A stretch of 58,539 bases of DNA from the sequence record OR508996.1, one strand, 5' to 3'. Positions 1,103 through 58,539 of the stretch are shown here, piece by piece (position 1 is the stretch's first letter; the number at the start of each line of letters is the position of its first letter). Position numbers and translations under genes: made by a program. The notes under the pieces were generated by a model. The model made no database searches, was not told the DNA's origin, and saw only the letters and a list, made by a program, of their open reading frames with translations. This DNA comes from Enterobacter phage Mulvp2.

Positions 1103-3247
1103 TTATTTGCGGAAACGAGGACCGCGCCACCCGCCCGCAGCTTTTACCGGCCAGTCTTTTGCCCAGTCAGGCAATTGACCCATTATCTCTTCGAACTCTT
1201 CGACAGCACCGTAGCCGATCGGAACCTCCGCCATCGCCTCATCGTGGACGTGCATGACAATAGGGTATTTGGAATCAAGGCGCACTAGTGCATGTGCGAG
1301 CAGATCGCGACATGTTCCCTGTACGACGTTGTTACAGAGTTTACCGCCCCAGGTGTCAATGCGCTGCCAGCGAGGTGCGGCTCGTGCCTTTTCCGGCATA
1401 CCGTAGTAGTACATCTGGTATGATGGTTGCCCTCGCCATGTGCCTTTCAATTCCAGTCCGGCACGATGATAGGTAAGTATTCGACCAGAGGGTAGACGGC
1501 AGTACAGGTTGCCATTTTTCATCTGGTACATAATGCCGTTGTACTGGAATGTGCTACCGGGCTGTTGTATGGCTGAAGACGCTGCGTGTTCCAGTCCATA
1601 CCAGAAGTCGCGGACTTTCGGTGATTTTGCACGCCAGTTTTTTACGGTCTGGTCCATTTCGCTTTCAGACATGAATTTGTCCGCCCCAAATGCAACTAAA
1701 CTTGCAACTCCGCCGCCATACCCTAGCGCCAGTTCTGCGGTCTTACCATGCTGTCGGTATGGGTGATGGTGACCGCCGTGTTCGTTCTGATAAGTTTTGA
1801 AATCTTCCATTGACATGCCATACATCTGTCCGGCCGACGCTTCATATATTTTTCCGTGAGTGCGGAAAACATCGATTCGCCATTCTTCCCCGGCGAGCAT
1901 CGCCAGGCCTCGGGCCTCAATAGCTGAATAGTCTGCGTTAATGAATTCGTGTCCGGGAGCCGCCATTATGAATCCACGAAGACACCCTGATATAGCTTTC
2001 ATGGCATTGCCGAAACGGTGCTCAATAACGTCCAATGATCGTGTCTGTAACAGTGCGATACATTCAAGCGCGTAATTCTCGTCCCACTCATTACCGTCAA
2101 CTTTCGGACCGGACCGAGGGAAGTTATGCGGCTGTGGCCCACTGCCAGCCCATCGTCCGGTACGCTCCGCGCCGCAGTAAATGAAAGCACCATGCAGACG
2201 CCCATCCCCAGATGCGAAGTTGCGCATACTGAAAAGTTTGGCAATACTCGCCGATCCTAGCATCTGGCGTATCTCAAGAACACGTTTTACATCGCTGTCA
2301 AGACCATCTTTATCGACCCATTCGTCAACGGTGTCTGCAGCGGTGTCAGGTACAAAACAACCGCGAGCGTGCAACCAGGCTTTTAATTTCTGGTGACTGT
2401 TCGCCGTAAGGACAGACCCGTTTGTTAGTCTTTGCAATTCAGGTGTGTATCGCGCGACGGCCTGATGATATATGGCGATAGCATTTTCCAGGTTCTCCAT
2501 GTCGACACCGACACCTCTTGCGTTTATCTTCTGATCCAGGATGAACATCTGCTGCTCAAAAGGATTTAGATCAGGGATAGCGGCGGATATAGCAGCTTCT
2601 GCAACAATGTCCTGTGCGTTATAAGTGCAGTTAGTCTGGTATAGTGCAGGGTCGTCTGTTGGTTTAATCCTTTTTCTGGGGTCTGCTTTTGTTGGGGTTC
2701 GCGGCATCCAGAGTTGTTTTGAAACCGAACCACCCAGGGTATCTTTTACGACCTGAAGTTGAAGTGCTTCACCGATCGCGGATAGTTTACGCGGCAGACC
2801 GTATGCCTGTGCTTTGCTCGCACTGCACCTCAATTGTTCAAGCTTAATTGCCGGGAACCCGAGACGCTTGTGCCAAACGTTAGTCCATATGGCATATTCA
2901 AAGAAGGAGTTGTGAGCCTCAATTATCCCACCCATTTCAATATAACGAATCAAATCCGCAGGGCGCGGGTCGCCATATCGCCACTGTTTAGGTCCGGTAC
3001 CATCTTTCAGATTGTAAGCCAGGCTTATAGGCTCGCAAGATGGGTGCATAGAGTACGTCCAGGCCCCTACGTCTGCTATTCCGCCTTTTGTGCCTAACTT
3101 ACACCATTTATTTTTCTCATCATCCCACTCGTACCCGGCTTCACAGTAAGTTTCAAAGTCCATATCTGCATAAACAGCAATTGGACCGAATGGCCCCGGA
3201 ACGGCGTCATATGGTCTGCCGGTGAATGGGTGTGTTAAAACTGTCAT
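1103..3247 (-). CDS. DNA polymerase, family A (T7-like, with 3'-5' exonuclease region)
   Basis: 714 aa. Motif A DYSAIEARGLA, motif B HGKTAELALGYGGG, motif C VHDEAM. SD AAGGAGTGAG before the ATG. Confidence 0.9.
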   Translation of the reverse strand: MTVLTHPFTGRPYDAVPGPFGPIAVYADMDFETYCEAGYEWDDEKNKWCKLGTKGGIADVGAWTYSMHPSCEPISLAYNLKDGTGPKQWRYGDPRPADLIRYIEMGGIIEAHNSFFEYAIWTNVWHKRLGFPAIKLEQLRCSASKAQAYGLPRKLSAIGEALQLQVVKDTLGGSVSKQLWMPRTPTKADPRKRIKPTDDPALYQTNCTYNAQDIVAEAAISAAIPDLNPFEQQMFILDQKINARGVGVDMENLENAIAIYHQAVARYTPELQRLTNGSVLTANSHQKLKAWLHARGCFVPDTAADTVDEWVDKDGLDSDVKRVLEIRQMLGSASIAKLFSMRNFASGDGRLHGAFIYCGAERTGRWAGSGPQPHNFPRSGPKVDGNEWDENYALECIALLQTRSLDVIEHRFGNAMKAISGCLRGFIMAAPGHEFINADYSAIEARGLAMLAGEEWRIDVFRTHGKIYEASAGQMYGMSMEDFKTYQNEHGGHHHPYRQHGKTAELALGYGGGVASLVAFGADKFMSESEMDQTVKNWRAKSPKVRDFWYGLEHAASSAIQQPGSTFQYNGIMYQMKNGNLYCRLPSGRILTYHRAGLELKGTWRGQPSYQMYYYGMPEKARAAPRWQRIDTWGGKLCNNVVQGTCRDLLAHALVRLDSKYPIVMHVHDEAMAEVPIGYGAVEEFEEIMGQLPDWAKDWPVKAAGGWRGPRFRK

Positions 3248-4940: not shown

Positions 4941-6058
4941 TCAGAAAGTTTTGACGCGACTGCCGCGCCGGGTTGTTCAGAGGCAACTAATCGCTTGCCT
5001 CCTGCTGGTTTAAAGATTAACAGCTTTGATACGTCGCTGTCAATTATTTTATCGATATTTGCCGGACTGATTAACTCGCGTGGTTTGCTGACCTTCTCAA
5101 CAAGGTCCGGCCGCATTGCGCAAAGGATGTCATATGCGCCTTCGACATATTTACGGTGCGTGTTGCGCTGCACCAGTTTGTAACCCGGGATATGCTTACC
5201 CTGGTTTTCGGCCATGTGGAACGCCAGTTTATCGACCGCGTCCTGCTGCGATTTGATAAACGTTGCCGCCTCATCAAGCAGGCGTTTGCGTTCCGCCATT
5301 TGCTCAGGTGTGGGATTCTGTAATTCAGTCATTACGATCACCTGTTTCAGATAGTGCTCTGTGCGCGCCCAGTGCGCCTCACACGACGCCATTCCCGGAC
5401 AATATTCGCACCATGCCCCGACGTTAAACGTGTGCTCACCGGCGCGCTTTGCCGCCTCGAATATCTTTACCCACCAGGTGTAAAGTTCCTGCAGCGTCAA
5501 ATTCCATGTCCGCGGTTCGCCGCATAACGGCTGAATAATATGACCGGTCACCGTTTCCGGTAAAGGCCACCCGCGTTCCTGAATATTACGCACCGCGCCG
5601 ATCAGATAAAACGCTAACTGGTGGTTGTCGACCGCTGGTACGAAAAGTCGACCGTGCTTCGCGTCAAATACGTCCAGATGTCGGTACAACGGACTGTAGC
5701 TGATACAGTCGGCCGTGCCGTACATGTCGTCAGACAGACTGACGCGCTGTTCAATAAACGTGTTGTCCCAGTTCAGCGCGCAGTGATCCACAACGTAATC
5801 AACGTACGTATCGCTTTCCAGGAACATGTCTTCGTACAGACTGACATCGTTCGGCGCATATGACGGCCAGATACCATCGAAATCACGACCGTGCTGTTTC
5901 CAGTGATTCAGACGTGTCTCGTCGACCCAGTGCAATGCGGTACCGCGCGCCGCGGCGTCACTTTCAGTGTCAGGTGGTGCAAGATGCAGTATCGCCACAC
6001 TGCCCGGGCAGTTTGCCCAGCGATAACATGACGACCCGCCTAACGTTGCGTGTGACAT
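4916..6058 (-). CDS. DUF2800 PD-(D/E)XK (Cas4-like) nuclease with Cys cluster
   Basis: 380 aa. N-terminus MSHATLGGSSCYRWANCPGS. C-terminal CEYCPGMASCEAHW cysteine cluster, typical of Cas4/DUF2800 Fe-S nucleases. Confidence 0.6.
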   Translation of the reverse strand: MSHATLGGSSCYRWANCPGSVAILHLAPPDTESDAAARGTALHWVDETRLNHWKQHGRDFDGIWPSYAPNDVSLYEDMFLESDTYVDYVVDHCALNWDNTFIEQRVSLSDDMYGTADCISYSPLYRHLDVFDAKHGRLFVPAVDNHQLAFYLIGAVRNIQERGWPLPETVTGHIIQPLCGEPRTWNLTLQELYTWWVKIFEAAKRAGEHTFNVGAWCEYCPGMASCEAHWARTEHYLKQVIVMTELQNPTPEQMAERKRLLDEAATFIKSQQDAVDKLAFHMAENQGKHIPGYKLVQRNTHRKYVEGAYDILCAMRPDLVEKVSKPRELISPANIDKIIDSDVSKLLIFKPAGGKRLVASEQPGAAVASKLSEWFNGASK

Positions 6059-36760: not shown

Positions 36761-36788
36761 AGCCCCGCGATGCGGGGCTTTTTGTTTT
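36761..36788. terminator. rho-independent terminator AGCCCCGCGATGCGGGGCT + TTTTGTTTT, shared with the convergent minus-strand gene
   Basis: Perfect 8-bp stem plus T-run. Confidence 0.6.
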
Positions 36789-37155: not shown

Positions 37156-37506
37156 ATGTCAACTTTCTTTCGTAACAAGCCTGTATTTGCACGTGTAGCA
37201 TTCACCTACGCTGGCGTTGAGTATCAGCCCGGCGACGAGTTCAAAGCACCGGCGCACAAAGTGCAGCAGATGTGGTTCGCACGCAAACTGACGCATGACG
37301 GCGCGGTTGATGACGCACCTGCTGTTGATGACGCACCTGCTGTTGATGACGCACCACTGGTCACGCTGGAACACAAAGGGGCAGGCTGGTACAACGTGTT
37401 GATGTCCGGTGCGCAGATGAACACCGACAAAATCAAAGGTAAAGACGCGGCGATTGAGTGGGCTGTGACTAATCTCGGGGTGACTGAAGATGTCATCAGC
37501 GTATAA
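37156..37506 (+). CDS. hypothetical structural-region protein with 3x VDDAPA tandem repeat
   Basis: 116 aa. Exact 18-bp DNA tandem repeat at 37306..37359. Confidence 0.5.
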   Translation: MSTFFRNKPVFARVAFTYAGVEYQPGDEFKAPAHKVQQMWFARKLTHDGAVDDAPAVDDAPAVDDAPLVTLEHKGAGWYNVLMSGAQMNTDKIKGKDAAIEWAVTNLGVTEDVISV

Positions 37507-37852
37507 CAGCAACATCCCGGCGCGGGCGTTCTGGTTCAGTCAGCAACCGTTGCCGATCAGCACGCTGACAGCGACACTTTCCGGTATGGATGACAATTAC
37601 CGAAAAGGAACCTTTTATATTGAGTTTTACGACGCTTCAGGTAACGTTGTAACACCGACGGCCGGAACAGTAGACGTACAGGCCAGTCCGCTCGGAAAAT
37701 TCTTCATGCGTAATCATGAAAACCAGCTTTATACCGCTGCGGCGATTCAGGATCATCCTGTTGAATTTAGCGGGATGATGCTGTCAGCAAAAGTGACTTT
37801 AGCCGGTGTTACCGGCGCGACAACCTGGCGTGCTGCCATGTGGAGGTCGTAA
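37490..37852 (+). CDS. hypothetical virion-module protein
   Basis: 120-aa ORF. Confidence 0.5.
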   Translation: MSSAYNSNIPARAFWFSQQPLPISTLTATLSGMDDNYRKGTFYIEFYDASGNVVTPTAGTVDVQASPLGKFFMRNHENQLYTAAAIQDHPVEFSGMMLSAKVTLAGVTGATTWRAAMWRS

Positions 37853-38412
37853 TGCCGTATTCAAATCCGGACGGTACTCCAATAGGCTTGTACCAGGGTC
37901 TGGAAGCCACGCCAACCCAGAATTATACTGAGATAAACAGTAAAAAGGGTGAGCAGCAGTATATACAGCTTGCACTTGCGCTGACTGCCGGAACGACAAC
38001 TAAAATTGCGTTCACGACAGGTAGTAAACCCGTACTTGTTAAACAGCGCGATTTTACTGCGCGCGGCGAACAAGTACGCATTCAGATTTTTAAAGCACCG
38101 ACAGGTGTGACAGGCGGAACGCCGGTAACCGTTCAGAATTTTAACGATCGTAACCCGGTGACAGGCAGCGTGGCAGTAACGTCTGGTGTAACAACCACAA
38201 CGAACGGTGTATCATGGGGTGACCCGCAAACAATATACGGTGTCAATCAGCAGAGTCAGCGTGTAGGTCAGATCATTTCAAGCGGTGCTGAACGTGTACT
38301 GGCGGCAAATAAAACGTATCTGATTGTTATCACCAATGGTACAGGCGACTCAACCTGTGAATATTTTCTGTCTTTCCGTGAGGGTGACACCGACTATCCG
38401 AGGTTACAATAA
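37853..38412 (+). CDS. hypothetical virion-module protein (Thr/Gly/Val-rich beta-type)
   Basis: 186 aa from ATG 37853 (TAATG). Confidence 0.5.
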
Positions 38413-39238: not shown

Positions 39239-39703
39239 ATGGCTAAAATCAGGGCAACGCGTTACAGCAATGCAACCATTCAAAAACAGATTGACGATGT
39301 GAAAGATTTAATTCGTGACTCTGTGAAAGAGGATGTGATTGCACTTGCCCTGAATATTCACGGACGACTTGTTGACAACCCACCAGAAGGTACACCGATC
39401 GATACAGGTTGGGCATCTGCAAACTGGTGGGTGTCAGCTGGAACAGCACCAACAGGTAATGACGGGTCAAAAGGTGATGTTGCGTCAGCACAGTCAAAGC
39501 AGTCGGCCGGGCTGGCTGACATATTGACTTATGAACCATCGAAAGGCGTTATTTACATCACCAACAATACGCCTTACATTAGCCGACTGAATAACGGCTG
39601 GTCGCAACAGTCCGCTGCCGGATATGTGGATCGTGCTGTGCAGATTGAAATTACTCGTTTCACTCACTCTACTAATTACAGGGCTATCAATCGTGACGAT
39701 TAA
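39239..39703 (+). CDS. HK97 gp10-like neck / head-tail adaptor family protein (putative)
   Basis: 154 aa. IDTGWASANWWVS resembles the TG-x-x-R/S motif of the gp10 family. Confidence 0.45.
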   Translation: MAKIRATRYSNATIQKQIDDVKDLIRDSVKEDVIALALNIHGRLVDNPPEGTPIDTGWASANWWVSAGTAPTGNDGSKGDVASAQSKQSAGLADILTYEPSKGVIYITNNTPYISRLNNGWSQQSAAGYVDRAVQIEITRFTHSTNYRAINRDD

Positions 39704-40109
39704 TGATATCCGCGCCGTGATTATCACCCGTTTGCTGAATCTCGGTCTGATTGTTGACGGGGTGGAAATTGACGGCGAGAAATACGATCCGAAAACAACC
39801 GATACCTGGGTTAGACTCACTGTGCAGTTTAACGCCGGTGGAATTACCACCCTGGGCGGTGAAGGTGTGTCGCGCCGCCGTGACCGTATCGGTATCGCTT
39901 ATGTGAACGTCTTTACGCCAATGCAGCAGGGTGTATTCCCGAACGATGAACTGTGCGAACAGCTTGTACAGGCATTCGAGGGGCAATGGGCGGATCCGTG
40001 CATTAATTACGGTCAACCAACAGGCGTGCGCATCGAGACGGAAGGTCGTGACGACGAATGGTACCTGCAGACAGTCGTTGTGCCGTTCAATGCCGAGGTA
40101 GTACGTTAA
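39693..40109 (+). CDS. putative tail completion / terminator-like protein (start GTG 39693 uncertain)
   Basis: About 138-aa ORF. Confidence 0.4.
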   Translation: MTINDIRAVIITRLLNLGLIVDGVEIDGEKYDPKTTDTWVRLTVQFNAGGITTLGGEGVSRRRDRIGIAYVNVFTPMQQGVFPNDELCEQLVQAFEGQWADPCINYGQPTGVRIETEGRDDEWYLQTVVVPFNAEVVR

Positions 40110-40660
40110 TGCGCGTTCTGTGCGTCGCTACGGGTCCGTCGCTCACACAAGCACAGATTGAGTGGGTGAATGCACAGGACTGCTTTAAAATCGCTGTAAA
40201 CAACGCCTGCTATCTCATATCACAGCCTGACGTCGTACTGGCGGCGGATTACGACTGGTGGATGCATAACAACCCGCCATCAGGTCAGCGTGTCACGTGC
40301 AGCCCGTTCGCTATCCCGGGCGTTGACCATTTCGTTTCTTCCGTGCGCGGATCGTTTTCATCTGGCGGACGGGCGATTGAATACGCTGTAACACAATTAA
40401 ATGCGACATGCATCGAACTGATAGGTTATGATTGCTCTGTGAAGAATGGGACGCATTGTCATGGTGACCACGGCGGCGGGCTGAAAAATCCGGATGCTGT
40501 AGTGACGTCACGCTGGCTTGACCACTACCGGAAAATTGCTGAGTGGTTACCGGAAAACGTGCGTGTCGTAAATTTGTCTACTTACACAGAGATACCTGAT
40601 GACGTATTTCAGAGGATACCATGGTCTGGGCGACAACATATTTCAGCGTCCGTTCCTTAA
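40109..40660 (+). CDS. Rossmann-type protein with CMP-sialyltransferase/DUF115 (MptE-like) N-terminal motif
   Basis: 183 aa from ATG 40109 (TAATG). MRVLCVATGPSL...VVLAADYDWW recalls the GNGPSL motif of Cst-II/Maf/PF01973 proteins. Confidence 0.35.
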   Translation: MRVLCVATGPSLTQAQIEWVNAQDCFKIAVNNACYLISQPDVVLAADYDWWMHNNPPSGQRVTCSPFAIPGVDHFVSSVRGSFSSGGRAIEYAVTQLNATCIELIGYDCSVKNGTHCHGDHGGGLKNPDAVVTSRWLDHYRKIAEWLPENVRVVNLSTYTEIPDDVFQRIPWSGRQHISASVP

Positions 40661-41453
40661 ATATTACCCCGGTGCATATCTGCGTACACCCTGGCCTGAA
40701 CTGTATCAGGGTCTGAACGTAAAACCTGTCCGCACTGAAACCCGACTTCGTACCCAGCAGAAAAACGAAACCCGCAGCGCGGTACAGTGGTATCCCGAGC
40801 CGAACGAACAACACACCAATGTCGGATACGGACCGCAGGATTTTCGTGTTTACGGTTCGATCATCAACACCCTGCGCCACCAGTTTAACGTCACCGGTCC
40901 ACTGCAGTTTGACCTGCCATCGTACGGTCAGGATCCGTTACGCATTTCCGGCCGCGTAGCTGTAATTCGTCCGGTTACGGTGCGCGAAGAATGGGACAGC
41001 ACATCTCGCGGATGTAACCCTGAATATATTTGCCAGGCTGCGGAGTCATTACGGTCGCGAGGATTTCATGTCGTCAGCGTTGCCGACCTGGAGCCGGGTA
41101 AAGAGTGGATTGTTGGCGATATGCCAAAAGCCGACACGTATTATCATCACGGTGAACTTTCCGTCACACAGCTTATGTCGCTTATTGAACGCGCGGACGT
41201 GATAGTGACGCCCGTCGGCTGGGCAGTACCTGCCAGCATTGCGTACCAGACACCATGTTTTGTCGTTGCCGGCGGTCGCGGAGGGCACAACGCGCCGCAC
41301 GTGATCACCGATCCTGATATGAACTTGCAGCGGGTAGGCTGGGCAATCCCGGACGAATACTGCATGTGCACCCAGGCGAAGCATGAATGCAATAAACACA
41401 TTACCGATTTCACAGGAAAACTGACGAGGTGGTTAAATGTTAACGTGGGATGA
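40599..41453 (+). CDS. GT-B glycosyltransferase, GT9 (heptosyltransferase)-like
   Basis: 284 aa. N-terminal YHGLGDNIFQRPFLK. C-terminal DVIVTPVGWAVPASIAYQTPCFVVAGG matches the GT9 pattern. Overlaps the upstream ORF by 62 nt. Confidence 0.45.
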   Translation: MTYFRGYHGLGDNIFQRPFLKYYPGAYLRTPWPELYQGLNVKPVRTETRLRTQQKNETRSAVQWYPEPNEQHTNVGYGPQDFRVYGSIINTLRHQFNVTGPLQFDLPSYGQDPLRISGRVAVIRPVTVREEWDSTSRGCNPEYICQAAESLRSRGFHVVSVADLEPGKEWIVGDMPKADTYYHHGELSVTQLMSLIERADVIVTPVGWAVPASIAYQTPCFVVAGGRGGHNAPHVITDPDMNLQRVGWAIPDEYCMCTQAKHECNKHITDFTGKLTRWLNVNVG

Positions 41454-42030
41454 GGAACGCGGATACGGTCACTATCCTGTTAAACAGGAAGACCGTCCGT
41501 ATGACGCGTCGTATTTTGAAAAGTACCGCAAGATGGCGAACACGCCGATCGGACACGCACTGACGAAAGCGCGCGTCGACCTGGTGCGTAAATATTACCC
41601 GGGTTTCAATCTGGTTGATGTAGGGATTGGATCCGGTCAGTTTGTCACGGCTTCAGGGGTGCTAGGATATGATGTCAATCCTGCCGGGGTCGAATGGCTG
41701 AACCAGCGTAACCGGTTTGCGGACATGTACGCCGGTCAGTATGATGCGATGACGTTCTGGGATAGTCTGGAGCACATCGATGATATGTCCGCTGCGGTAG
41801 AGCATATTGACCGCTTTGCGTTTGTCAGTATCCCTGTATTCAGCGGGTATGACGACGTGCTGACGTCAAAACATTTCCGACCAGATGAGCATATTCATTA
41901 CTTTACCGTCGCTGGATTGATCCGCTGGTTTGACGAGCAGGGGTTTAACTGCAGGGAATACAACCAGATTGAATCGGATATCGGACGGGAAGGGATCGGA
42001 ACGTTCGTATTTGAAAGAAAGCCCGCGTAG
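41437..42030 (+). CDS. class I SAM-dependent methyltransferase
   Basis: 197 aa. Motif I LVDVGIGSGQF. Acidic post-I motif YDVNP. Confidence 0.6.
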   Translation: MLTWDEERGYGHYPVKQEDRPYDASYFEKYRKMANTPIGHALTKARVDLVRKYYPGFNLVDVGIGSGQFVTASGVLGYDVNPAGVEWLNQRNRFADMYAGQYDAMTFWDSLEHIDDMSAAVEHIDRFAFVSIPVFSGYDDVLTSKHFRPDEHIHYFTVAGLIRWFDEQGFNCREYNQIESDIGREGIGTFVFERKPA

Positions 42031-42048
42031 TGCGGGCTGTTTTTATTC
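42019..42048. terminator. bidirectional terminator AAGCCCGCGTAGTGCGGGCT + GTTTTTATT
   Basis: Perfect hairpin between convergent genes. Confidence 0.55.
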
Positions 42049-42297
42049 TTCATCACTCGGTCGACGGTCTTTATCCCATTCGTCATCGTTCGGGTCTACA
42101 TGATTTACGGGTCGTTTATAACCGCATTCTGTGCAAACCATATAACCGTGATCCCATTTGTGTAGGCATGGCTTATTGAGATTGTGGCGGTTAATAAATT
42201 CGCGGCGCTGTTCGTACAACCATTCCAGCGTGCATTCAGTTTCACCGATTCGCTCGTTGAATACACGCATCTGCAGTTCGATTTGTTGTTCGGTCAT
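42043..42297 (-). CDS. Cys/His-rich small protein (zinc finger-like)
   Basis: 84 aa. CLHKWDHGYMVCTECGYK. Confidence 0.45.
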   Translation of the reverse strand: MTEQQIELQMRVFNERIGETECTLEWLYEQRREFINRHNLNKPCLHKWDHGYMVCTECGYKRPVNHVDPNDDEWDKDRRPSDEE

Positions 42298-42737
42298 TTA
42301 CCGGTACTCCCAAATCCGCCGTTTCGTCCGGTGCCCGGGTCAGAAAGCTGGTCAACCACGGTGATAAAAGCAGGCTGGTATGGTAACACGATAGCCTGCG
42401 CAAGTCGGTCACCTTGCTTGATGCCGTCAAGCACTTCTTGACCGGTCAGTGATTCGGCTTTGAGTTTAATTTTCACCTCATCGCGATAGTCACTGTCGAT
42501 CACACCGACAGCATTTGACAGGCTGATGTCATATTTGAATCCGTGACCACTGCGGCTGAAAATCAGCATGACGTGGTTTTCCGGAACTTCGAACGCCAGG
42601 CCGGTTCCGCAGATAGCGTTGCCCGCCGAGTCATATTCGACATTACCGTCAGTCGCCAGATCGAAACACGCAGATCCTGCAGTGGCGTATTTCGGAATGA
42701 CAGCCTGATCGTTTAACAGTTTGATATTCAGGTTCAT
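42294..42737 (-). CDS. dut: dUTP diphosphatase (dUTPase)
   Basis: 147 aa. Motifs AGSACFDL, GVIDSDYRDE, RNGGFGSTG. Confidence 0.85.
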   Translation of the reverse strand: MNLNIKLLNDQAVIPKYATAGSACFDLATDGNVEYDSAGNAICGTGLAFEVPENHVMLIFSRSGHGFKYDISLSNAVGVIDSDYRDEVKIKLKAESLTGQEVLDGIKQGDRLAQAIVLPYQPAFITVVDQLSDPGTGRNGGFGSTGK

Positions 42738-43063
42738 TACATTTTTCCCAGTTCACGGGCAGCATAGTAGCCCGCTGTTGTTGACATTTCGGCGGCGTTC
42801 CACCCGGCGACATAATCCGGTGAGGTTGACGACATTTTGCGACGGTTATCTTTAATGCGTTTTTCAAAGTGGTCAGGTGTTTCACCCATCCACGCCGCTT
42901 TCTCACCGTCACGGCACGCGGCGGTCAGTGCGCGATCGGTAACCGCGTCATATTCGAAACCGTGCATCACGGCGACAGCCGTTGCCACGCGGTCACAGGA
43001 TACACGCATTTGCGCGCTGGCAACTACCGGTACGAACAATGCTAAAACGATCAGGATTTTCAT
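42737..43063 (-). CDS. secreted small protein (signal peptide MKILIVLALFVPVVASA)
   Basis: 108 aa from the MKILIV ATG. RBS CAGTGAGAGTATTACTATG. Confidence 0.45.
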   Translation of the reverse strand: MKILIVLALFVPVVASAQMRVSCDRVATAVAVMHGFEYDAVTDRALTAACRDGEKAAWMGETPDHFEKRIKDNRRKMSSTSPDYVAGWNAAEMSTTAGYYAARELGKM

Positions 43064-43071
43064 AGTAATAC

Positions 43072-43103
43072 TCTCACTGAATAAAAGCCCGCCATAAGCG
43101 GGC
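43072..43103 (-). terminator. minus-strand terminator GCCCGCTTATGGCGGGC + TTTTATT
   Basis: Hairpin plus T-run downstream of gene 43112..43303. Confidence 0.45.
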
Positions 43104-43111
43104 AATTAGTG

Positions 43112-43464: not shown

Positions 43465-44907
43465 ATGGCTCTCGATCCGTGCGACAATCGCGCAGCAGAC
43501 GGCTCGGCTACATCGATTAGCCTGTGCCGTGTTAACGAACCGGACTCCGGTACGGTATGGACTTATCAGGAACCGAACGAAGTCAGTTCATGGGGTGCGT
43601 CACTCGAAACGGTTGCCCGTCAGCCTTTGAGCCTCGACCGCGCCGCACGTAAAGGCACCGTAACCAGTCTCAGCGCTGAGGCAGGATTCACCGCCGATCA
43701 GTTCATTGACAACCTGGCGTATCTGCTTGACGCGCTGGTATTCAGCGTCTGGAAAGGTAACAACCCGAACGGTACAGCATCAACCGGTGCTACCGCGTCA
43801 GGTTACAGCGTTGCATCCGGCGGTACAGCTTTCACCCAGGGCACGCTCGTTTATGTCTCAGGTTTTGACATGGCAGCGAACAACGGTCTGAAAGTCGTCG
43901 GCTCAGGTTCAACGAACACGAATATCGCTGTGACCGGTCTGACGGTCGATGCCAGCACGGGCACCGTGTACAAAGCAGGTATTCGTTATTCCACCGGTTC
44001 GCTGACGATGGATGCACAGGGTAACCTGGTATCTGAGGCAACTGCTGTAGACTTCACGACGCTCGGTCTGACGCCTGGTCAGGTCATCGGTCTGACAGGT
44101 TTCAGCACTGGTGCTGACGGTACAGCGCGCGTGCGTCAGGTAACCGCCACACAAATCACCCTGGACCATCACAGCGGCACGCCGGCGGCTATCACTCCGA
44201 GCGGCAACGTGGATCTGTACATCGGTTCATTCGTGCGCAACGTGTCAATGGACAACGTGGACTATCAGTGCGTACCGTTCACCGGTGAAGCGCGATACAA
44301 CACCAACCCGACCACGTACGAATATGCGCGCGGTATGCTGCTGAACCAGATCGCGTTCAACAACAGCCTGGAAGATAAAACCACGCTGGAAACCACGTTT
44401 ATCTGTGAAGACGTGGAAGCGATGACCGAAACCCGTCTGCCGGGCATCTGGGAAAACTACGACCGCACCGAAGCGTTTAACACGTCGGCCGACTTTACCG
44501 ATCTGCGCCTGTTCATTACCGGCGACCTGACCGGTGACACGACGTTCTTCAAAGACACCACGTTGACGATCAACAACAACCTGTCCGGCGAGTCCGTACT
44601 GGGTAAACTCGGTCCTGAATTCATCAACCTCGGTGATTTCGCTGTGACCCTGGATACCGAAGTTGTTCTGACCGACACCCGTGTCGCCGCGGCGATCCGC
44701 AATAACACCACCTGCGGTCTGCAGTACACTCAGCAGAACAATGACGGTGCTATCGTGGTCGACCTGCCGACAATGACCCTGGGTGACGGTGCGAAGAACA
44801 TCGCAGCGAACGAGAAGGTTAAACTGACCACTACCGGCACCGCGTTCCTGGACGACGATTACGGTTACGTTGTTGGTTTCAGCCTGTTCCCGTACCTGCC
44901 ACGTTGA
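43465..44907 (+). CDS. major tail (tube) protein, putative
   Basis: 480 aa. Thr/Gly/Ser-rich beta protein upstream of the chaperone/TMP genes, with its own terminator. Confidence 0.5.
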   Translation: MALDPCDNRAADGSATSISLCRVNEPDSGTVWTYQEPNEVSSWGASLETVARQPLSLDRAARKGTVTSLSAEAGFTADQFIDNLAYLLDALVFSVWKGNNPNGTASTGATASGYSVASGGTAFTQGTLVYVSGFDMAANNGLKVVGSGSTNTNIAVTGLTVDASTGTVYKAGIRYSTGSLTMDAQGNLVSEATAVDFTTLGLTPGQVIGLTGFSTGADGTARVRQVTATQITLDHHSGTPAAITPSGNVDLYIGSFVRNVSMDNVDYQCVPFTGEARYNTNPTTYEYARGMLLNQIAFNNSLEDKTTLETTFICEDVEAMTETRLPGIWENYDRTEAFNTSADFTDLRLFITGDLTGDTTFFKDTTLTINNNLSGESVLGKLGPEFINLGDFAVTLDTEVVLTDTRVAAAIRNNTTCGLQYTQQNNDGAIVVDLPTMTLGDGAKNIAANEKVKLTTTGTAFLDDDYGYVVGFSLFPYLPR

Positions 44908-44915
44908 TAAAATAA

Positions 44916-44942
44916 AGCCCCGCAATGCGGGGCTAGTTTTTT
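44916..44942. terminator. bidirectional terminator AGCCCCGCAATGCGGGGCT + AGTTTTTT
   Basis: Perfect hairpin. The stop of the convergent minus-strand gene lies inside the T-run. Confidence 0.6.
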
Positions 44943-57682: not shown

Positions 57683-57708
57683 CCCGCTACGTGCGGGCTT
57701 TTGCTATA
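57681..57708. terminator. bidirectional terminator AGCCCGCTACGTGCGGGCT + TTTGCTAT (the minus-strand methylase stop lies inside the hairpin)
   Basis: Perfect stem. TTTT follows on the plus strand and ATTTTTC on the minus strand. Confidence 0.6.
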
Positions 57709-58539
57709 CGTTGCTCTGCTATTTCGCAGTAATGCGGATCCATTTCAAAACCGATGAATTCGAACCCCTCCAGCATACACGCTTTGCCTGTTGAACCACT
57801 GCCTGTGAACGGATCAAGAACAGTTCCGCCCGGCGGCGTGACGAGTCGTACAAGCCATTGCATCAGCGCTGTGGGTTTAACTGTCGGGTGGTCATTGCGT
57901 GCACCTGATGTACGTCCTGCCCCGGCGCGAGGTGAGTTCATACCGGCGCTATCAGCATCACGGTCAACCATTTCAGCGGCAGAGGTTGCAGCGAGTGACA
58001 CACCTTCATCGCGATCGGCTTTACTGGCTTTAGCGCAGTAAAAGAAACGTGACCATTCTTCAGCATTAAGTCCATCATGGACGAAGTTTGCAGGCCAGCG
58101 CCCTTGTTCAGATGGTTGCCAGTCGTTTTGTGGATAATCAATGTTATCGCGTTGATGACTTAACAAACCGCCACTGCCGCCTTTTATTTGTTCGTCAGTT
58201 GGCACACGACATCCGTCAATATTCAGCGCGCCGGTACTGTGCGTTAGTACGTTTTCAGCCACAGTACCGGATAACGGTTTGCGGGCAACACAGATCGGTT
58301 CATGCGCCGGTTTGAGTGCTGTACCCCAGCCTGACCACTGTTTCGCTTCGTCGGTGGCTGGTGCTGTGATGTAAGCTTTTTCAGGCATGCCAACCGCAGA
58401 CATATTCAAACTGTTACCACCCGATTTATTGCCTGCTGGGTTTTTATGCTCTCCGATGACCTCACGTTCTACTCCAGCCGCCTTGTCAATCGCCTTACTC
58501 ACATCCAGCGATTTTGGAAATCCGGATCCATACACCCAC
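57687..58539 (-). CDS. DNA methyltransferase (beta-class N6A/N4C, PF01555-like), C-terminal part. The N-terminal part is at 1..338.
   Basis: ...WVYGSGFPKSLDV...HPTVKPTALMQWLVRLVTPPGGTVLDPFTGSGSTGKAC, with the motif I FxGxG at the C-terminus. The ORF runs to the window edge with no start. Confidence 0.8.
   Translation of the reverse strand, partial: WVYGSGFPKSLDVSKAIDKAAGVEREVIGEHKNPAGNKSGGNSLNMSAVGMPEKAYITAPATDEAKQWSGWGTALKPAHEPICVARKPLSGTVAENVLTHSTGALNIDGCRVPTDEQIKGGSGGLLSHQRDNIDYPQNDWQPSEQGRWPANFVHDGLNAEEWSRFFYCAKASKADRDEGVSLAATSAAEMVDRDADSAGMNSPRAGAGRTSGARNDHPTVKPTALMQWLVRLVTPPGGTVLDPFTGSGSTGKACMLEGFEFIGFEMDPHYCEIAEQRIAKART

What the first reader, a model, noticed from the sequence alone, without database searches (positions are those of the whole stretch)
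40109..42030. Three-enzyme cassette (sialyltransferase/DUF115-like + GT9-like glycosyltransferase + SAM methyltransferase) embedded between neck and tail-tube genes
Three consecutive, overlapping plus-strand genes sit inside the virion morphogenesis operon.
- 40109..40660 has a GxGPSL Rossmann motif like CMP-sialyltransferase Cst-II, Maf and MptE (PF01973) proteins.
- 40599..41453 has GT9/GT-B hallmarks: GLGDNIF near the N-terminus, and a C-terminal VIVTPVGW...P.FVVAGG pocket pattern.
- 41437..42030 is a class I SAM methyltransferase (VDVGIGSGQF).

They are followed by a bidirectional terminator. Such a set in a late operon suggests glycosylation/methylation of virion proteins, or synthesis and transfer of a modified sugar. 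Alternatives are a DNA- or LPS-modifying function. None of these is standard for this gene neighbourhood, and the first two ORFs overlap by 62 nt in different frames.
Basis: partly seen in the sequence, partly recalled or inferred. Interest (0 to 1): 0.7.

Follow-up and report, generated by a model that had tools for sequence, protein, structure and literature searches.

The report
Mobile late-expressed phage glycosylation cassette
Three real, overlapping phage genes (two glycosyltransferase-like enzymes and a methyltransferase) form a widespread mobile cassette that was inserted at the end of this phage's head-neck operon. It probably builds a small methylated sugar chain late in infection, perhaps on virion proteins, but what it modifies is unproven.

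Summary
ORF1 (40109-40660), ORF2 (40599-41453) and ORF3 (41437-42030) are real, translationally coupled genes that end at a bidirectional terminator.

**Folds.**
- ORF1 has the core fold of Maf, the flagellin glycosyltransferase, and is sialyltransferase-like.
- ORF2 is a compact GT9-fold enzyme. Its closest solved relative is TibC, a protein heptosyltransferase.
- ORF3 is a class I SAM methyltransferase.

**The trio is a unit.** The order O1-O2-MT recurs in 106 of 119 loci examined, and O1 and O2 are sometimes fused. Known carriers include Pseudomonas phages D3 and PAJU2 and Klebsiella phage Eowyn. All cellular hosts found are Proteobacteria.

A position inside the virion genes is not conserved:
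- 85 of 119 loci place the cassette between antiterminator Q and the lysis genes.
- 16 place it after the major capsid gene.
- Relatives of this phage at about 70% protein identity lack it. Here it is a clean 1.9-kb insertion between the tail-terminator stop codon and the operon terminator.

What is shared is late expression. Virion-protein glycosylation is the best guess (about 0.4). LPS modification is the main rival, and DNA modification is unlikely.

The family is already sequenced and annotated but uncharacterised, so this is a new member of a known kind.

Side finding: in D3-like loci O1 appears to need a -1 ribosomal frameshift.

The parts
40109..40660 (+). ORF1 (O1), 183 aa. Maf/DUF115-type, sialyltransferase-like glycosyltransferase core.
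   Evidence: - ORF call and TAATG coupling to the upstream gene.
- PHROG 4603, E 1e-27.
- AlphaFold2 pLDDT 93.4.
- 72 of 88 family members hit PF01973 weakly.
40127..40144 (+). ORF1 N-terminal nucleotide-binding loop, A7-T-G-P-S-L12 (family consensus ASGPSL).
   Evidence: Nearly invariant A7, S8, G9, P10, S11 and L12 in the 88-sequence alignment.
40448..40471 (+). ORF1 conserved G-T-H-C-H-G-D-H motif (G114, H116, H118, G119, H121). Candidate catalytic His cluster.
   Evidence: G114, H116 and H118 are invariant; G119 and H121 are nearly invariant. The catalytic role is inferred by analogy with His-base sialyltransferases and was not mapped residue by residue.
40599..41453 (+). ORF2 (O2), 284 aa. 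Compact GT-B glycosyltransferase of GT9/TibC-like fold.
   Evidence: - PHROG 6804, E 1e-106; no Pfam hit.
- AlphaFold2 pLDDT 96.7.
- Foldseek: TibC E 1e-7.
- Weak profile match to the RfaF/WaaF C-domain.
40599..40660 (+). 62-nt overlap between the ORF1 3' end and the ORF2 5' end. ORF2 is in the +1 frame relative to ORF1.
   Evidence: - Coordinates and sequence.
- The ORF1 tail is unconserved and low-confidence.
- The ORF2 N-terminus is conserved from residue 3.
- No frameshift signal was seen.
40623..40634 (+). ORF2 G9-L-G-D12 motif. Candidate catalytic Asp, analogous to the N-terminal Asp of GT9 enzymes and TibC Asp110.
   Evidence: G9, G11 and D12 are nearly invariant in 87 sequences. The analogy to TibC Asp110 (PMC4358343) is an inference.
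41361..41390 (+). ORF2 C255-x-C257-x4-H262-x-C264. Probable metal-binding knuckle near the C-terminus.
   Evidence: All four residues are invariant in 87 sequences. TibC has a four-Cys iron finger inserted in the same lobe. Metal binding is inferred.
41437..42030 (+). ORF3 (MT), 197 aa. Class I SAM-dependent methyltransferase of small-molecule/O-methyltransferase type.
   Evidence: - Pfam Methyltransf_23, 47.5 bits against a cut-off of 27.
- PHROG 6564, E 3e-79.
- Weak UbiG-like matches in the PDB.
- No DNA-methylase motifs.
41614..41643 (+). ORF3 SAM-binding motif I, V60-D-V-G-I-G-S-G-Q-F69.
   Evidence: D61, G63, G65, G67 and F69 are invariant in 20 homologues.
42020..42038 (.). Bidirectional intrinsic terminator that closes the head-neck-cassette transcription unit and the convergent minus-strand unit.
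   Evidence: - Terminator scan on both strands and sequence.
- A homologous hairpin directly follows the tail-terminator gene in the cassette-less relative L124.
39624..40109 (+). Tail terminator gene. Left boundary of the insertion; its stop codon overlaps the ORF1 start.
   Evidence: Pfam Phage_tail_terminator_5, PHROG 179, and the TAATG junction.

Best explanation
ORF1-ORF2-ORF3 form one functional unit: a mobile, late-expressed glycan-building cassette.

**Shown**
- ORF1 has the catalytic-core fold of Maf and sialyltransferase-type enzymes. ORF2 is a minimal GT9-fold glycosyltransferase closest to the protein heptosyltransferase TibC. ORF3 is a class I SAM methyltransferase.
- The three genes are translationally coupled. 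They keep the same order in more than a hundred phage and prophage loci, and ORF1 and ORF2 are fused in several.
- In this phage the cassette is a 1.9-kb insertion between the tail-terminator gene and the pre-existing operon terminator. It has no strong consensus promoter or terminator of its own and is predicted to be co-transcribed with the late head-neck genes.

**Inferred**
- Late in infection, in the cytoplasm, ORF2 transfers a heptose from host ADP-heptose.
- ORF1 transfers a CMP-activated keto-deoxy sugar acid. CMP-Kdo is the only such donor that all proteobacterial hosts make.
- ORF3 O-methylates the product, giving a short methylated glycan.
- The most likely acceptor is Ser/Thr of one or more newly made virion proteins. 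This would resemble flagellin glycosylation by Maf, adhesin heptosylation by TibC, and capsid and tail-tube glycosylation in mycobacteriophages.
For: **Genes and coupling:**

**Folds**
- ORF2: TibC is the top Foldseek hit at E 1e-7, ahead of RfaF (3.8e-6) and WaaC (3e-5).
- ORF2: four-stranded N-lobe and a C-terminal Cys/His cluster, as in TibC.
- ORF3: Methyltransf_23 above the Pfam cut-off.

**One unit**
- O1-O2-MT order in 82 of 84 entries (83 fetched loci plus the window) and in 24 of 35 genome loci, with 5 more O1/O2 fusions.
- Fusion proteins P0049 and P0059.
- O2-like domains fused to a true GT9 domain, LicD or a methyltransferase elsewhere.

**Insertion:** relatives L124-L126 lack the cassette and share the terminator hairpin.

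**Late expression everywhere:** downstream of antiterminator Q, before terminase genes, or in head modules.

**Host range:** all cellular hosts are Proteobacteria, which make ADP-heptose and CMP-Kdo.

**Leads only**
- The PAJU2 depositors annotated the O1 homologue as 'structural protein'.
- Virion glycosylation in mycobacteriophages, as cited in PMC11256854.
- GT9 and Methyltransf_23 genes are predicted in enterobacterial flagellin-glycosylation islands (PMC6993521).
Against: - No acceptor has been identified.
- The cassette travels between phages with unrelated capsid and tail proteins.
- Cassette-bearing and cassette-less relatives have collinear tail-tube proteins with no extra segment.
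- In 85 of 119 loci the cassette is not next to virion genes at all.
- The ORF2 N-lobe is basic (pI 9.5), like the membrane- and LPS-facing N-lobes of WaaC and WaaF.
- ORF2 lacks TibC's N-terminal beta-barrel. In the only available alignments, which are low-confidence, it also lacks the GT9 'D(S/T)G' Asp.
- Donor sugars are inferred only from fold and host range.
- ORF1-family genes in phage P1 (pmgO, pmgP) are dispensable for plaque formation, so any role is accessory.
Confidence: 0.4

Rival explanations
1. The cassette modifies a host envelope glycolipid. ORF2 adds a heptose and ORF1 a Kdo-like sugar to the LPS inner core or lipid A-Kdo at the cytoplasmic face of the inner membrane, and ORF3 methylates the result. 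This would change the cell surface of infected or induced cells, for example to stop progeny adsorbing to debris or to exclude other phages.
For: - GT9-fold enzymes are classically LPS heptosyltransferases. RfaF and WaaC are among the top structural hits, and the only sequence-level link is to the RfaF/WaaF C-domain.
- Cst-I, an ORF1 structural neighbour, sialylates lipooligosaccharide.
- The ORF2 N-lobe has pI 9.5, like the WaaC and WaaF N-lobes.
- The cassette is restricted to Proteobacteria.
- It is independent of virion protein type, and in 85 of 119 loci it sits next to lysis genes rather than virion genes.
Against: - The cassette always lies in late operons, which are silent in lysogens. 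Known LPS-converting phage genes are expressed from the prophage.
- LPS made minutes before lysis can replace little of the outer-membrane LPS.
- No membrane anchor or signal peptide is apparent in the sequences.
Confidence: 0.25
2. The cassette acts on some other acceptor: a host protein, or a soluble small molecule or cofactor. In this reading ORF1 may work as an MptE-like or thiamine-pyrophosphokinase-like diphosphokinase rather than a glycosyltransferase.
For: - The weak Pfam hits are to PF01973, which is named after MptE.
- ORF3 most resembles small-molecule O-methyltransferases such as UbiG.
- No acceptor could be identified in the genomes.
Against: - Maf scores clearly higher and covers 86% of ORF1.
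- ORF1 is fused to the glycosyltransferase ORF2 in several genomes.
- O2-like domains are fused to further glycan-building enzymes: GT9, LicD and a methyltransferase.
Confidence: 0.2
3. The cassette hypermodifies phage DNA just before packaging (late, like Mu Mom), attaching heptose or Kdo-type sugars to bases to evade restriction.
For: - Phage GT-B enzymes can attach Kdo- and heptose-type sugars to 5hmC in DNA (bioRxiv 10.1101/2023.12.21.572611).
- Late timing and a basic ORF2 N-lobe are compatible with this.
Against: - The cassette has no hydroxymethylase, TET-like dioxygenase or C5-cytosine methylase, and none was found among the ten larger early-region proteins of the window that were scanned.
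- ORF3 lacks DNA-methylase motifs and matches small-molecule-type methyltransferases.
- Most carriers are lambdoid prophages, a group not known to have hydroxymethylated bases (general knowledge).
Confidence: 0.05

Closest known systems
The uncharacterised three-gene cassette of Pseudomonas phages PAJU2 (gp10-gp12) and D3 (orf7, orf12, orf13), Klebsiella phage Eowyn (gp005-gp003), and hundreds of proteobacterial prophages
   Same: - Same three protein families: PHROGs 4603, 6804 and 6564.
- ORF2 is 42-49% identical to the phage homologues.
- Same gene order and overlapping genes.
- Some GenBank records already annotate them as sialyltransferase, GT9 glycosyltransferase and methyltransferase.
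   Different: - A different insertion point: here after the tail-terminator gene of a phage with a T5-like 480-aa tail tube and its own DNA polymerase.
- ORF1 belongs to a divergent sub-branch, only about 35% identical to the main family.
- None of these homologues has a tested function.
TibC/AAH bacterial autotransporter heptosyltransferases (BAHT family; PDB 4RAP, 4RB4)
   Same: - Reduced four-stranded N-lobe.
- Conserved Asp near the start of the catalytic domain.
- Cys-rich metal site in the C-lobe region.
- A cytoplasmic protein O-glycosyltransferase that uses ADP-heptose.
   Different: - 11-14% identity.
- ORF2 lacks the N-terminal beta-barrel. A beta-hairpin thumb could not be checked.
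- Its cluster is CxCx4HxC rather than four dispersed Cys.
- No autotransporter substrate gene is nearby.
- Oligomeric state is unknown.
LPS heptosyltransferases WaaC/WaaF (CAZy GT9, Pfam PF01075)
   Same: - Weak profile similarity in the nucleotide-sugar-binding C-domain.
- Basic N-lobe.
- N-terminal G-D motif.
   Different: - No PF01075 hit.
- The family forms a closed set of 861 clusters that HMMER does not connect to GT9.
- The 'D(S/T)G' Asp aligns with Val/Gly.
- About 40-60 residues shorter.
Maf flagellin nonulosonic-acid glycosyltransferases (DUF115/PF01973; PDB 5MU5) and GT42 sialyltransferases Cst-I/Cst-II
   Same: - N-terminal xGPSL loop and S-G...G-x-D motifs.
   Different: - ORF1 is only the 183-aa core, without Maf's flanking domains (the Maf chain has 632 residues).
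- The Pfam score is below the gathering threshold.
- It is not in a flagellar locus.
- Hosts generally lack CMP-pseudaminic or CMP-sialic acid, so another donor must be assumed, such as CMP-Kdo.
Mycobacteriophage virion glycosylation (Che8 and Rita; Freeman et al. 2023, as cited in PMC11256854)
   Same: Phage-encoded glycosyltransferases that decorate capsid proteins with glycans. This is the only established precedent for phage virion glycosylation that I could find.
   Different: - The hosts are Actinobacteria.
- There the modification was shown by mass spectrometry. Here nothing has been shown.
Phage P1 pmgO/pmgP ('putative morphogenetic' genes)
   Same: ORF1-family paralogues in a late operon (LPpmgL), about 32% identical over 92% of ORF1.
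   Different: - P1 has two O1-like genes and an unrelated glycosyltransferase (pmgQ), but no O2 or MT homologue.
- These P1 genes are non-essential.

Membership tests
CAZy GT9 / Pfam PF01075 (heptosyltransferases) | Sequence match to the family profile at its curated threshold | tested here: not met
   - No Pfam family for ORF2 at E <= 0.1.
- Profile against PDB: RfaF E 0.069.
- hhalign against WaaF: C-domain only, E 3e-4, probability 38%. WaaC was not significant.
- An exhaustive HMMER search finds a closed family of 861 clusters.
CAZy GT9 / Pfam PF01075 (heptosyltransferases) | GT-B two-lobe fold with GT9 structures as nearest neighbours | tested here: met
   [not shown]
CAZy GT9 / Pfam PF01075 (heptosyltransferases) | Conserved C-lobe Asp of the D(S/T)G motif (WaaC Asp261) | tested here: not met
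   Both hhalign alignments place this Asp opposite V206 of the ORF2 'TPVGW' stretch (family consensus GGVGW). The alignments are low-confidence.
CAZy GT9 / Pfam PF01075 (heptosyltransferases) | N-terminal catalytic Asp (WaaC Asp13, TibC Asp110) | tested here: inconclusive
   D12 in G-L-G-D is nearly invariant and follows beta-strand 1. No residue-level superposition was available.
CAZy GT9 / Pfam PF01075 (heptosyltransferases) | Use of ADP-heptose as donor | not testable with these tools
   Needs an enzyme assay. It is only consistent with the proteobacterial host range.
BAHT (TibC/AAH protein heptosyltransferases) | N-terminal beta-barrel domain required for activity | tested here: not met
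   The ORF2 model starts with the Rossmann-like strand at residue 3, and the protein has only 284 aa. TibC residues 1-97 form the barrel.
BAHT (TibC/AAH protein heptosyltransferases) | Four-Cys iron finger in the C-lobe | tested here: inconclusive
   ORF2 has invariant C255, C257, H262 and C264. That is three Cys and one His in a compact knuckle, whereas TibC uses Cys339, 342, 358 and 370. The metal and its geometry were not testable.
BAHT (TibC/AAH protein heptosyltransferases) | Reduced four-stranded N-lobe, and TibC as closest structure | tested here: met
   DSSP gives four strands in residues 1-115, matching the TibC description. TibC chains take Foldseek ranks 1-21.
BAHT (TibC/AAH protein heptosyltransferases) | Adjacent autotransporter substrate gene | tested here: not met
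   The neighbours are phage neck, tail, lysis, Q or capsid genes.
Maf / DUF115 (Pfam PF01973 MptE-like) | Profile match at the gathering score | tested here: not met
   ORF1 scores 19.1 bits against a cut-off of 34.6. 72 of 88 family members match at E <= 0.01, best 1.3e-7.
Maf / DUF115 (Pfam PF01973 MptE-like) | Central sialyltransferase-like catalytic fold | tested here: met
   [not shown]
Maf / DUF115 (Pfam PF01973 MptE-like) | Flanking N- and C-terminal domains, and a flagellar locus with flagellin as substrate | tested here: not met
   ORF1 has 183 aa against 632 residues in the Maf chain. There are no flagellar genes in the window neighbourhood.
GT42 sialyltransferases (Cst-I/Cst-II) | Sequence and structure similarity, including the catalytic His | tested here: inconclusive
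- The invariant H116 and H118 were not mapped onto the catalytic His.
Class I SAM-dependent methyltransferases (Pfam Methyltransf_23) | Profile match above the cut-off, and the glycine-rich motif I | tested here: met
   47.5 bits against a cut-off of 27, E 2.1e-12. D61, G63, G65 and G67 are invariant.
DNA methyltransferases (N6/N4 or C5) | (D/N/S)PP(Y/F/W) or PC/ENV catalytic motifs | tested here: not met
   None of these motifs occurs in ORF3, and there is no DNA-methylase Pfam hit.
Phage virion glycosylation systems (mycobacteriophage type) | Glycan covalently attached to capsid or tail proteins, dependent on the phage glycosyltransferases | not testable with these tools
   Needs mass spectrometry of virions. 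The only hint is the depositor's label 'structural protein' for the PAJU2 O1 homologue.
Known anti-phage defence systems (PADLOC) | Match to any defence-system protein model | tested here: not met
   No hit at E <= 0.01 for ORF1-3 or for the two minus-strand neighbours scanned, the Zn-ribbon and the small secreted protein.

The most novel reading that the evidence does not exclude
The cassette would be the first virion-glycosylation system of phages that infect Gram-negative bacteria. Using only host LPS precursors (ADP-heptose and CMP-Kdo), it would coat capsid or tail proteins with a methylated, inner-core-like Hep/Kdo glycan. It would spread as a self-contained module among hundreds of proteobacterial phages. 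In D3-like phages the first enzyme would be delivered as a -1 frameshift fusion to a small protein encoded right after the major capsid gene.
Probability: 0.3. Interest if true: 0.8.

Novelty: new member of a known kind. Interest (0 to 1): 0.5.

Why it matters
Virion glycosylation has been shown only for mycobacteriophages. There it is reported to influence immune recognition of the particles, according to the title of Freeman et al. 2023; I could not read the paper itself.

If this cassette does the same in phages of Pseudomonas, Klebsiella, Enterobacter, Bordetella and their relatives, it would bear on three things:
- phage-therapy pharmacology, through antibody recognition and clearance;
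- particle stability and adhesion;
- how phages exploit host LPS precursors.

The cassette is compact, portable and present in culturable phages (D3, PAJU2, Eowyn). The question is therefore directly testable with a knockout and mass spectrometry.

If the cassette instead edits the LPS core late in infection, that would be a new type of phage-driven surface remodelling.

In either case, ORF2 defines a distinct family of minimal GT9-fold enzymes that has no Pfam model.

Tried and rejected
1. **Near-identical DNA in GenBank phages.** None found. The window belongs to an unsequenced lineage. Its closest relatives are IMG/VR contigs.
2. **Sequence searches of ORF1 and ORF2 against PDB chains.** Only noise, plus a marginal RfaF hit.
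3. **NCBIfam.** Nothing useful.
4. **Extra genes inside some cassettes.** I checked whether they reveal the chemistry. They are HNH/AP2 homing endonucleases.
5. **Cassette-specific acceptor segment.** I compared cassette-bearing and cassette-less relatives. The tail-tube proteins are collinear.
6. **Ser/Ala/Pro-rich tail as acceptor.** In head-module loci the small ORF upstream of O1 has such a tail with 'invariant' serines, and I considered it as the glycan acceptor. Rejected: the tail is the O1 N-terminus (VVCIASGPSLTADDC) read in another frame, and the conservation is at the nucleotide level.
7. **Window gene 37156-37506 against that small ORF family.** Not significant.
8. **Rfam on the conserved element.** No family. 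The element is absent from the window.
9. **Proposed pseudoknot.** 86.8% of cells are paired, but there is only one compensatory change, and fold-energy z-scores are -0.3 to -1.5. It is not established.
10. **P1 pmgP and pmgQ as O2 or MT homologues.** They are not.
11. **PADLOC defence models.** None.
12. **Resources that were unavailable.** The AlphaFold-database fold library was not available, and Freeman et al. 2023 was not readable.
13. **Literature searches for this cassette, or for glycosylated virions of Gram-negative phages.** Nothing found.


Full report

Yes. The ORF list shows three consecutive plus-strand ORFs at 40109/40058-40660, 40599-41453 and 41437-42030.

- **ORF1.** Its ATG at 40109 overlaps the TAA stop of the upstream gene (TAATG) and has a GAGG 10 nt upstream.
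- **ORF2.** It begins at the first available start codon, 40599. Its N-terminus is conserved from residue 3, so the 62-nt out-of-frame overlap with ORF1 is genuine. The overlapped ORF1 tail is unconserved and poorly predicted.
- **ORF3.** It overlaps ORF2 by 17 nt and has its own GAGG.
- **Terminator.** The ORF3 stop codon lies in the loop of a GC-rich hairpin at 42020-42038. T-runs on both strands make it a bidirectional terminator.
- **Motifs.** The quoted motifs are present, except that the ORF1 loop is ATGPSL rather than GxGPSL.
- **Neighbours.** Upstream are Hc1-like, Neck1 (tail completion) and tail-terminator genes. The 480-aa tail tube gene is at 43465.
A convergent minus-strand island (Zn-ribbon protein, dUTPase, small secreted protein; 42043-43105) separates the cassette from the tail tube gene.

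**2. What are the proteins?**

*ORF1*
- It matches PHROG 4603, labelled 'alpha-2,3-sialyltransferase' (E 1e-27).
- It matches Pfam MptE-like only weakly (19 bits against a cut-off of 34.6). However, 72 of 88 family members give weak PF01973 hits.
- An AlphaFold2 model built on 88 homologues is confident (pLDDT 93.4).
- Invariant residues include the ASGPSL loop, S85-G86, G106-x-D108 and a T-H-x-H-G-D-H cluster.

*ORF2*
- It has no Pfam family and matches PHROG 6804 ('unknown', E 1e-106).
- Its model is very confident (pLDDT 96.7).
- By Foldseek, the protein heptosyltransferase TibC ranks first (E 1e-7), ahead of RfaF and WaaC.
- Like TibC (PMC4358343), ORF2 has a four-stranded N-lobe. It also has a conserved Asp just after strand 1 (G-L-G-D12) and an invariant Cys/His cluster near the C-terminus (C255, C257, H262, C264).
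- It lacks TibC's beta-barrel. In the available low-confidence alignments it also lacks the GT9 D(S/T)G Asp.
- An exhaustive HMMER search of 1.84 billion representative proteins finds a closed family of 861 clusters, 566 of them below 1e-30. ORF2 is therefore GT9-like in fold but not a GT9 member by sequence.

*ORF3*
- It is a Methyltransf_23 class I SAM methyltransferase (47.5 bits against a cut-off of 27).
- It shows weak UbiG-like affinities and has no DNA-methylase motifs.

**3. The three genes are one unit.**

- tblastn finds ORF2 homologues in 28 phage records: D3, PAJU2 and other Pseudomonas phages, plus the Klebsiella jumbo phage Eowyn.
- In PAJU2 the homologues are gp10-gp12, lying between the head-closure and tail-completion genes.
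- In D3 the O1 homologue (orf7) follows the capsid gene, while O2 and MT (orf12, orf13) follow the head-closure gene.
- Among 84 entries (83 fetched loci plus the window), 82 have the order O1-O2-MT. Among 35 bacterial-genome loci, 24 have that order and 5 more have O1 fused to O2.
- Fusion proteins of 457-484 aa confirm the O1-O2 partnership.
- Elsewhere the O2 domain is fused to a true PF01075 GT9 domain, to LicD, or to a methyltransferase. This fits stepwise assembly of a decorated glycan.
- All genome hits with a credible taxonomic assignment are Proteobacteria.

**4. Position: what is and is not conserved.**

- Neighbour clustering with PHROG annotation shows that most loci are lambdoid prophages. 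In these the cassette is the first gene block of the late operon, between antiterminator Q (or RusA) and holin-endolysin-Rz.
- Of 119 loci, 85 are of this type, 16 lie in the head module (capsid gene, small ORF, cassette, head-tail connector), 8 lie next to HNH/terminase genes, and 10 are other arrangements, including this window and Eowyn.
- Relatives of this phage with about 70% protein identity and identical synteny (L124-L126) lack the cassette.
- In L124 the tail-terminator stop codon is followed directly by a hairpin homologous to the one at 42020-42038.
- In the window, therefore, the 1.92-kb cassette is a clean insertion upstream of a pre-existing terminator. It has no strong promoter of its own and is translationally coupled to the tail-terminator gene.
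- The shared property of all contexts is late co-expression with virion and lysis genes, not adjacency to virion genes.

**5. Mechanism.**

*Shown:* there are two glycosyltransferase-fold enzymes and a SAM methyltransferase. They are genetically and sometimes physically coupled, and they sit in late operons.

*Inferred:*
- ORF2 uses ADP-heptose, because its fold neighbours are all ADP-heptose enzymes.
- ORF1 uses a CMP-activated keto-deoxy sugar acid. CMP-Kdo is the only such donor common to all the proteobacterial hosts.
- ORF3 O-methylates the glycan.

*The acceptor is the open question.*
- **For a protein (virion) acceptor.** The closest solved relative of each transferase by at least one method is a cytoplasmic protein O-glycosyltransferase (Maf and TibC). 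The timing is late. There is a mycobacteriophage precedent (PMC11256854, which cites Freeman et al. 2023). The PAJU2 depositors labelled the O1 homologue 'structural protein', but I could not verify this. Predicted flagellin-glycosylation islands of Enterobacterales also combine GT9 and Methyltransf_23 genes (PMC6993521).
- **Against a protein acceptor.** The cassette moves among phages with unrelated capsids and tails. No cassette-linked acceptor segment was found. The ORF2 N-lobe is as basic as those of WaaC and WaaF.
- **LPS-core modification** is therefore a serious rival.
- **DNA modification** is unlikely. The cassette has no hydroxymethylation machinery, ORF3 is not a DNA methylase, and most carriers are lambdoid prophages. 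Phage GT-B enzymes that attach Kdo or heptose to 5hmC do exist, however (bioRxiv 10.1101/2023.12.21.572611).
- **Accessory role.** ORF1-family genes of P1 (pmgO, pmgP) are non-essential (PMC10695390).

**6. Novelty and score.**

- The cassette family has been in GenBank since D3 and PAJU2 were deposited. Some records already label its genes sialyltransferase, GT9 heptosyltransferase and methyltransferase.
- I found no paper that addresses its function.
- The window therefore adds a new member, at a new insertion site, to a known but uncharacterised kind.
- The finding is real and moderately interesting.

**7. Side finding in related loci (not in the window).**

- In head-module loci (D3, Bordetella, Castellaniella, Alcanivorax, Methylophaga, Pseudomonas and several IMG/VR contigs) the O1 frame has no in-frame ATG, GTG or TTG upstream of its essential GRW-x-VVCIASGPSL N-terminus in 10 of 12 cases. 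It is open for only 10-63 codons upstream of that motif.
- It lies in the -1 frame of an overlapping 80-105-aa ORF that follows the capsid gene (D3 orf6.5; PHROGs 7993 and 2616).
- An in-phase slip site sits exactly 23 nt upstream of the motif in 11 of 12 loci: C CCA AAG in three, C CCT TTG in one, A AAG GGC in one, and C CCN-type in six. The twelfth locus, L109, has G GGA AAA 32 nt upstream.
- The downstream ~65 nt are almost invariant, even at synonymous sites, and can form two interleaved stems. Covariation is minimal, however, and the fold energies are unremarkable.
- This points to a conserved -1 programmed frameshift that fuses a small capsid-adjacent protein to the first glycosyltransferase. 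If confirmed, it would tie the cassette physically to head assembly in those phages.

Noticed in passing
Related loci, not the window: L002 (D3) 5090-5190; L102 5392-5491; L106 5413-5512; L107 5150-5249; L112 5437-5536; L116 5181-5280; L127-L133: Probable conserved -1 programmed ribosomal frameshift.
- In head-module-type loci the O1 frame mostly lacks any in-frame ATG, GTG or TTG before its essential VVCIASGPSL N-terminus (10 of 12 loci).
- It lies in the -1 frame of an overlapping small ORF that follows the capsid gene (D3 orf6.5).
- An in-phase slip site (CCCAAAG, CCCTTTG, AAAGGGC or C CCN) sits 23 nt upstream of the motif in 11 of 12 loci.
- Near-invariant DNA follows, with two interleaved inverted repeats (GGCCGCTGGC/GCCAGCGGCC and GTCGTCTGC/GCAGACGAC).
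- The D3 annotation of orf7 as a 152-aa protein would then be N-terminally truncated.
   Followed up: partly
window 42043-43105 (minus strand), with promoter-like site 43383-43355 and terminator-like hairpins 43087-43103 and 42020-42038: A convergent three-gene island splits the neck genes from the tail tube gene.
- It holds an 84-aa Zn-ribbon protein, a dUTPase (Pfam E 3.5e-17) and a 122-aa protein with a signal-peptide-like MKILIVLALFVPVVASAQ.
- The dUTPase is also present in cassette-less relatives.
- The Zn-ribbon gene gave no match in the cassette-less relatives L124-L126. The close relative L122 matches only part of it (44 of 84 aa).
   Followed up: partly
window 36761-36779, 42020-42038, 44916-44934: Three near-identical GC-rich hairpins (AGCCCCGC-NNN-GCGGGGCT or AGCCCGC-NNNNN-GCGGGCT) score as bidirectional terminators. 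They follow the major capsid gene, the cassette and the tail tube gene, which suggests a reused terminator module punctuating the late genes.
   Followed up: no
window 37490-38412: Two genes (120 aa; 190 aa, PHROG 5335, unknown function) gave no tblastn match in the close relative L122 or in L124-L126. This is a second indel in the head-neck region of this lineage.
   Followed up: no
window 37156-37506: A 116-aa gene downstream of the capsid gene carries a tandem peptide repeat, DDAPAV-DDAPAV-DDAPLV. Only its N-terminal pattern loosely resembles the small ORF that precedes O1 in D3-like phages, and the similarity is not significant (hhalign E 0.077).
   Followed up: partly
L010 5454-6011; L029 6861-7400; L061 7025-7564: HNH/AP2-type homing-endonuclease genes are inserted between cassette genes in some prophages. 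P0304 carries an intein with a LAGLIDADG domain between a true GT9 domain and an O2-like domain. The cassette is a target for selfish elements.
   Followed up: partly
L119 (phage P1) 3938-5124 and 5795-6496: P1 pmgO and pmgP are both ORF1-family (DUF115-like) paralogues in a late operon. The same operon also encodes a Ser/Thr phosphatase (ppp) and an unrelated 'glycosyltransferase' (pmgQ). All are reported non-essential. This may be a second, different phage glycosylation module.
   Followed up: partly
window 57687-58535 (minus strand): An N6/N4 DNA methylase (Pfam PF01555, E 3.5e-22) lies at the window edge. It is the only DNA-modification gene found among the window proteins I scanned.
   Followed up: no
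L084, L091, L100 (Pantoea stewartii ATCC 8199 chromosome): One bacterial chromosome carries three separate copies of the cassette, at three well-separated sites that are probably three different prophages (their flanks were not examined individually).
   Followed up: no
L003 (AP009624.1) 2447-3016; LR881104.1 (Eowyn): The original depositors labelled the O1 homologues of PAJU2 (ORF010) and Eowyn 'structural protein'. If this rests on virion proteomics, the Maf-like enzyme may be carried in the particle.
   Followed up: no
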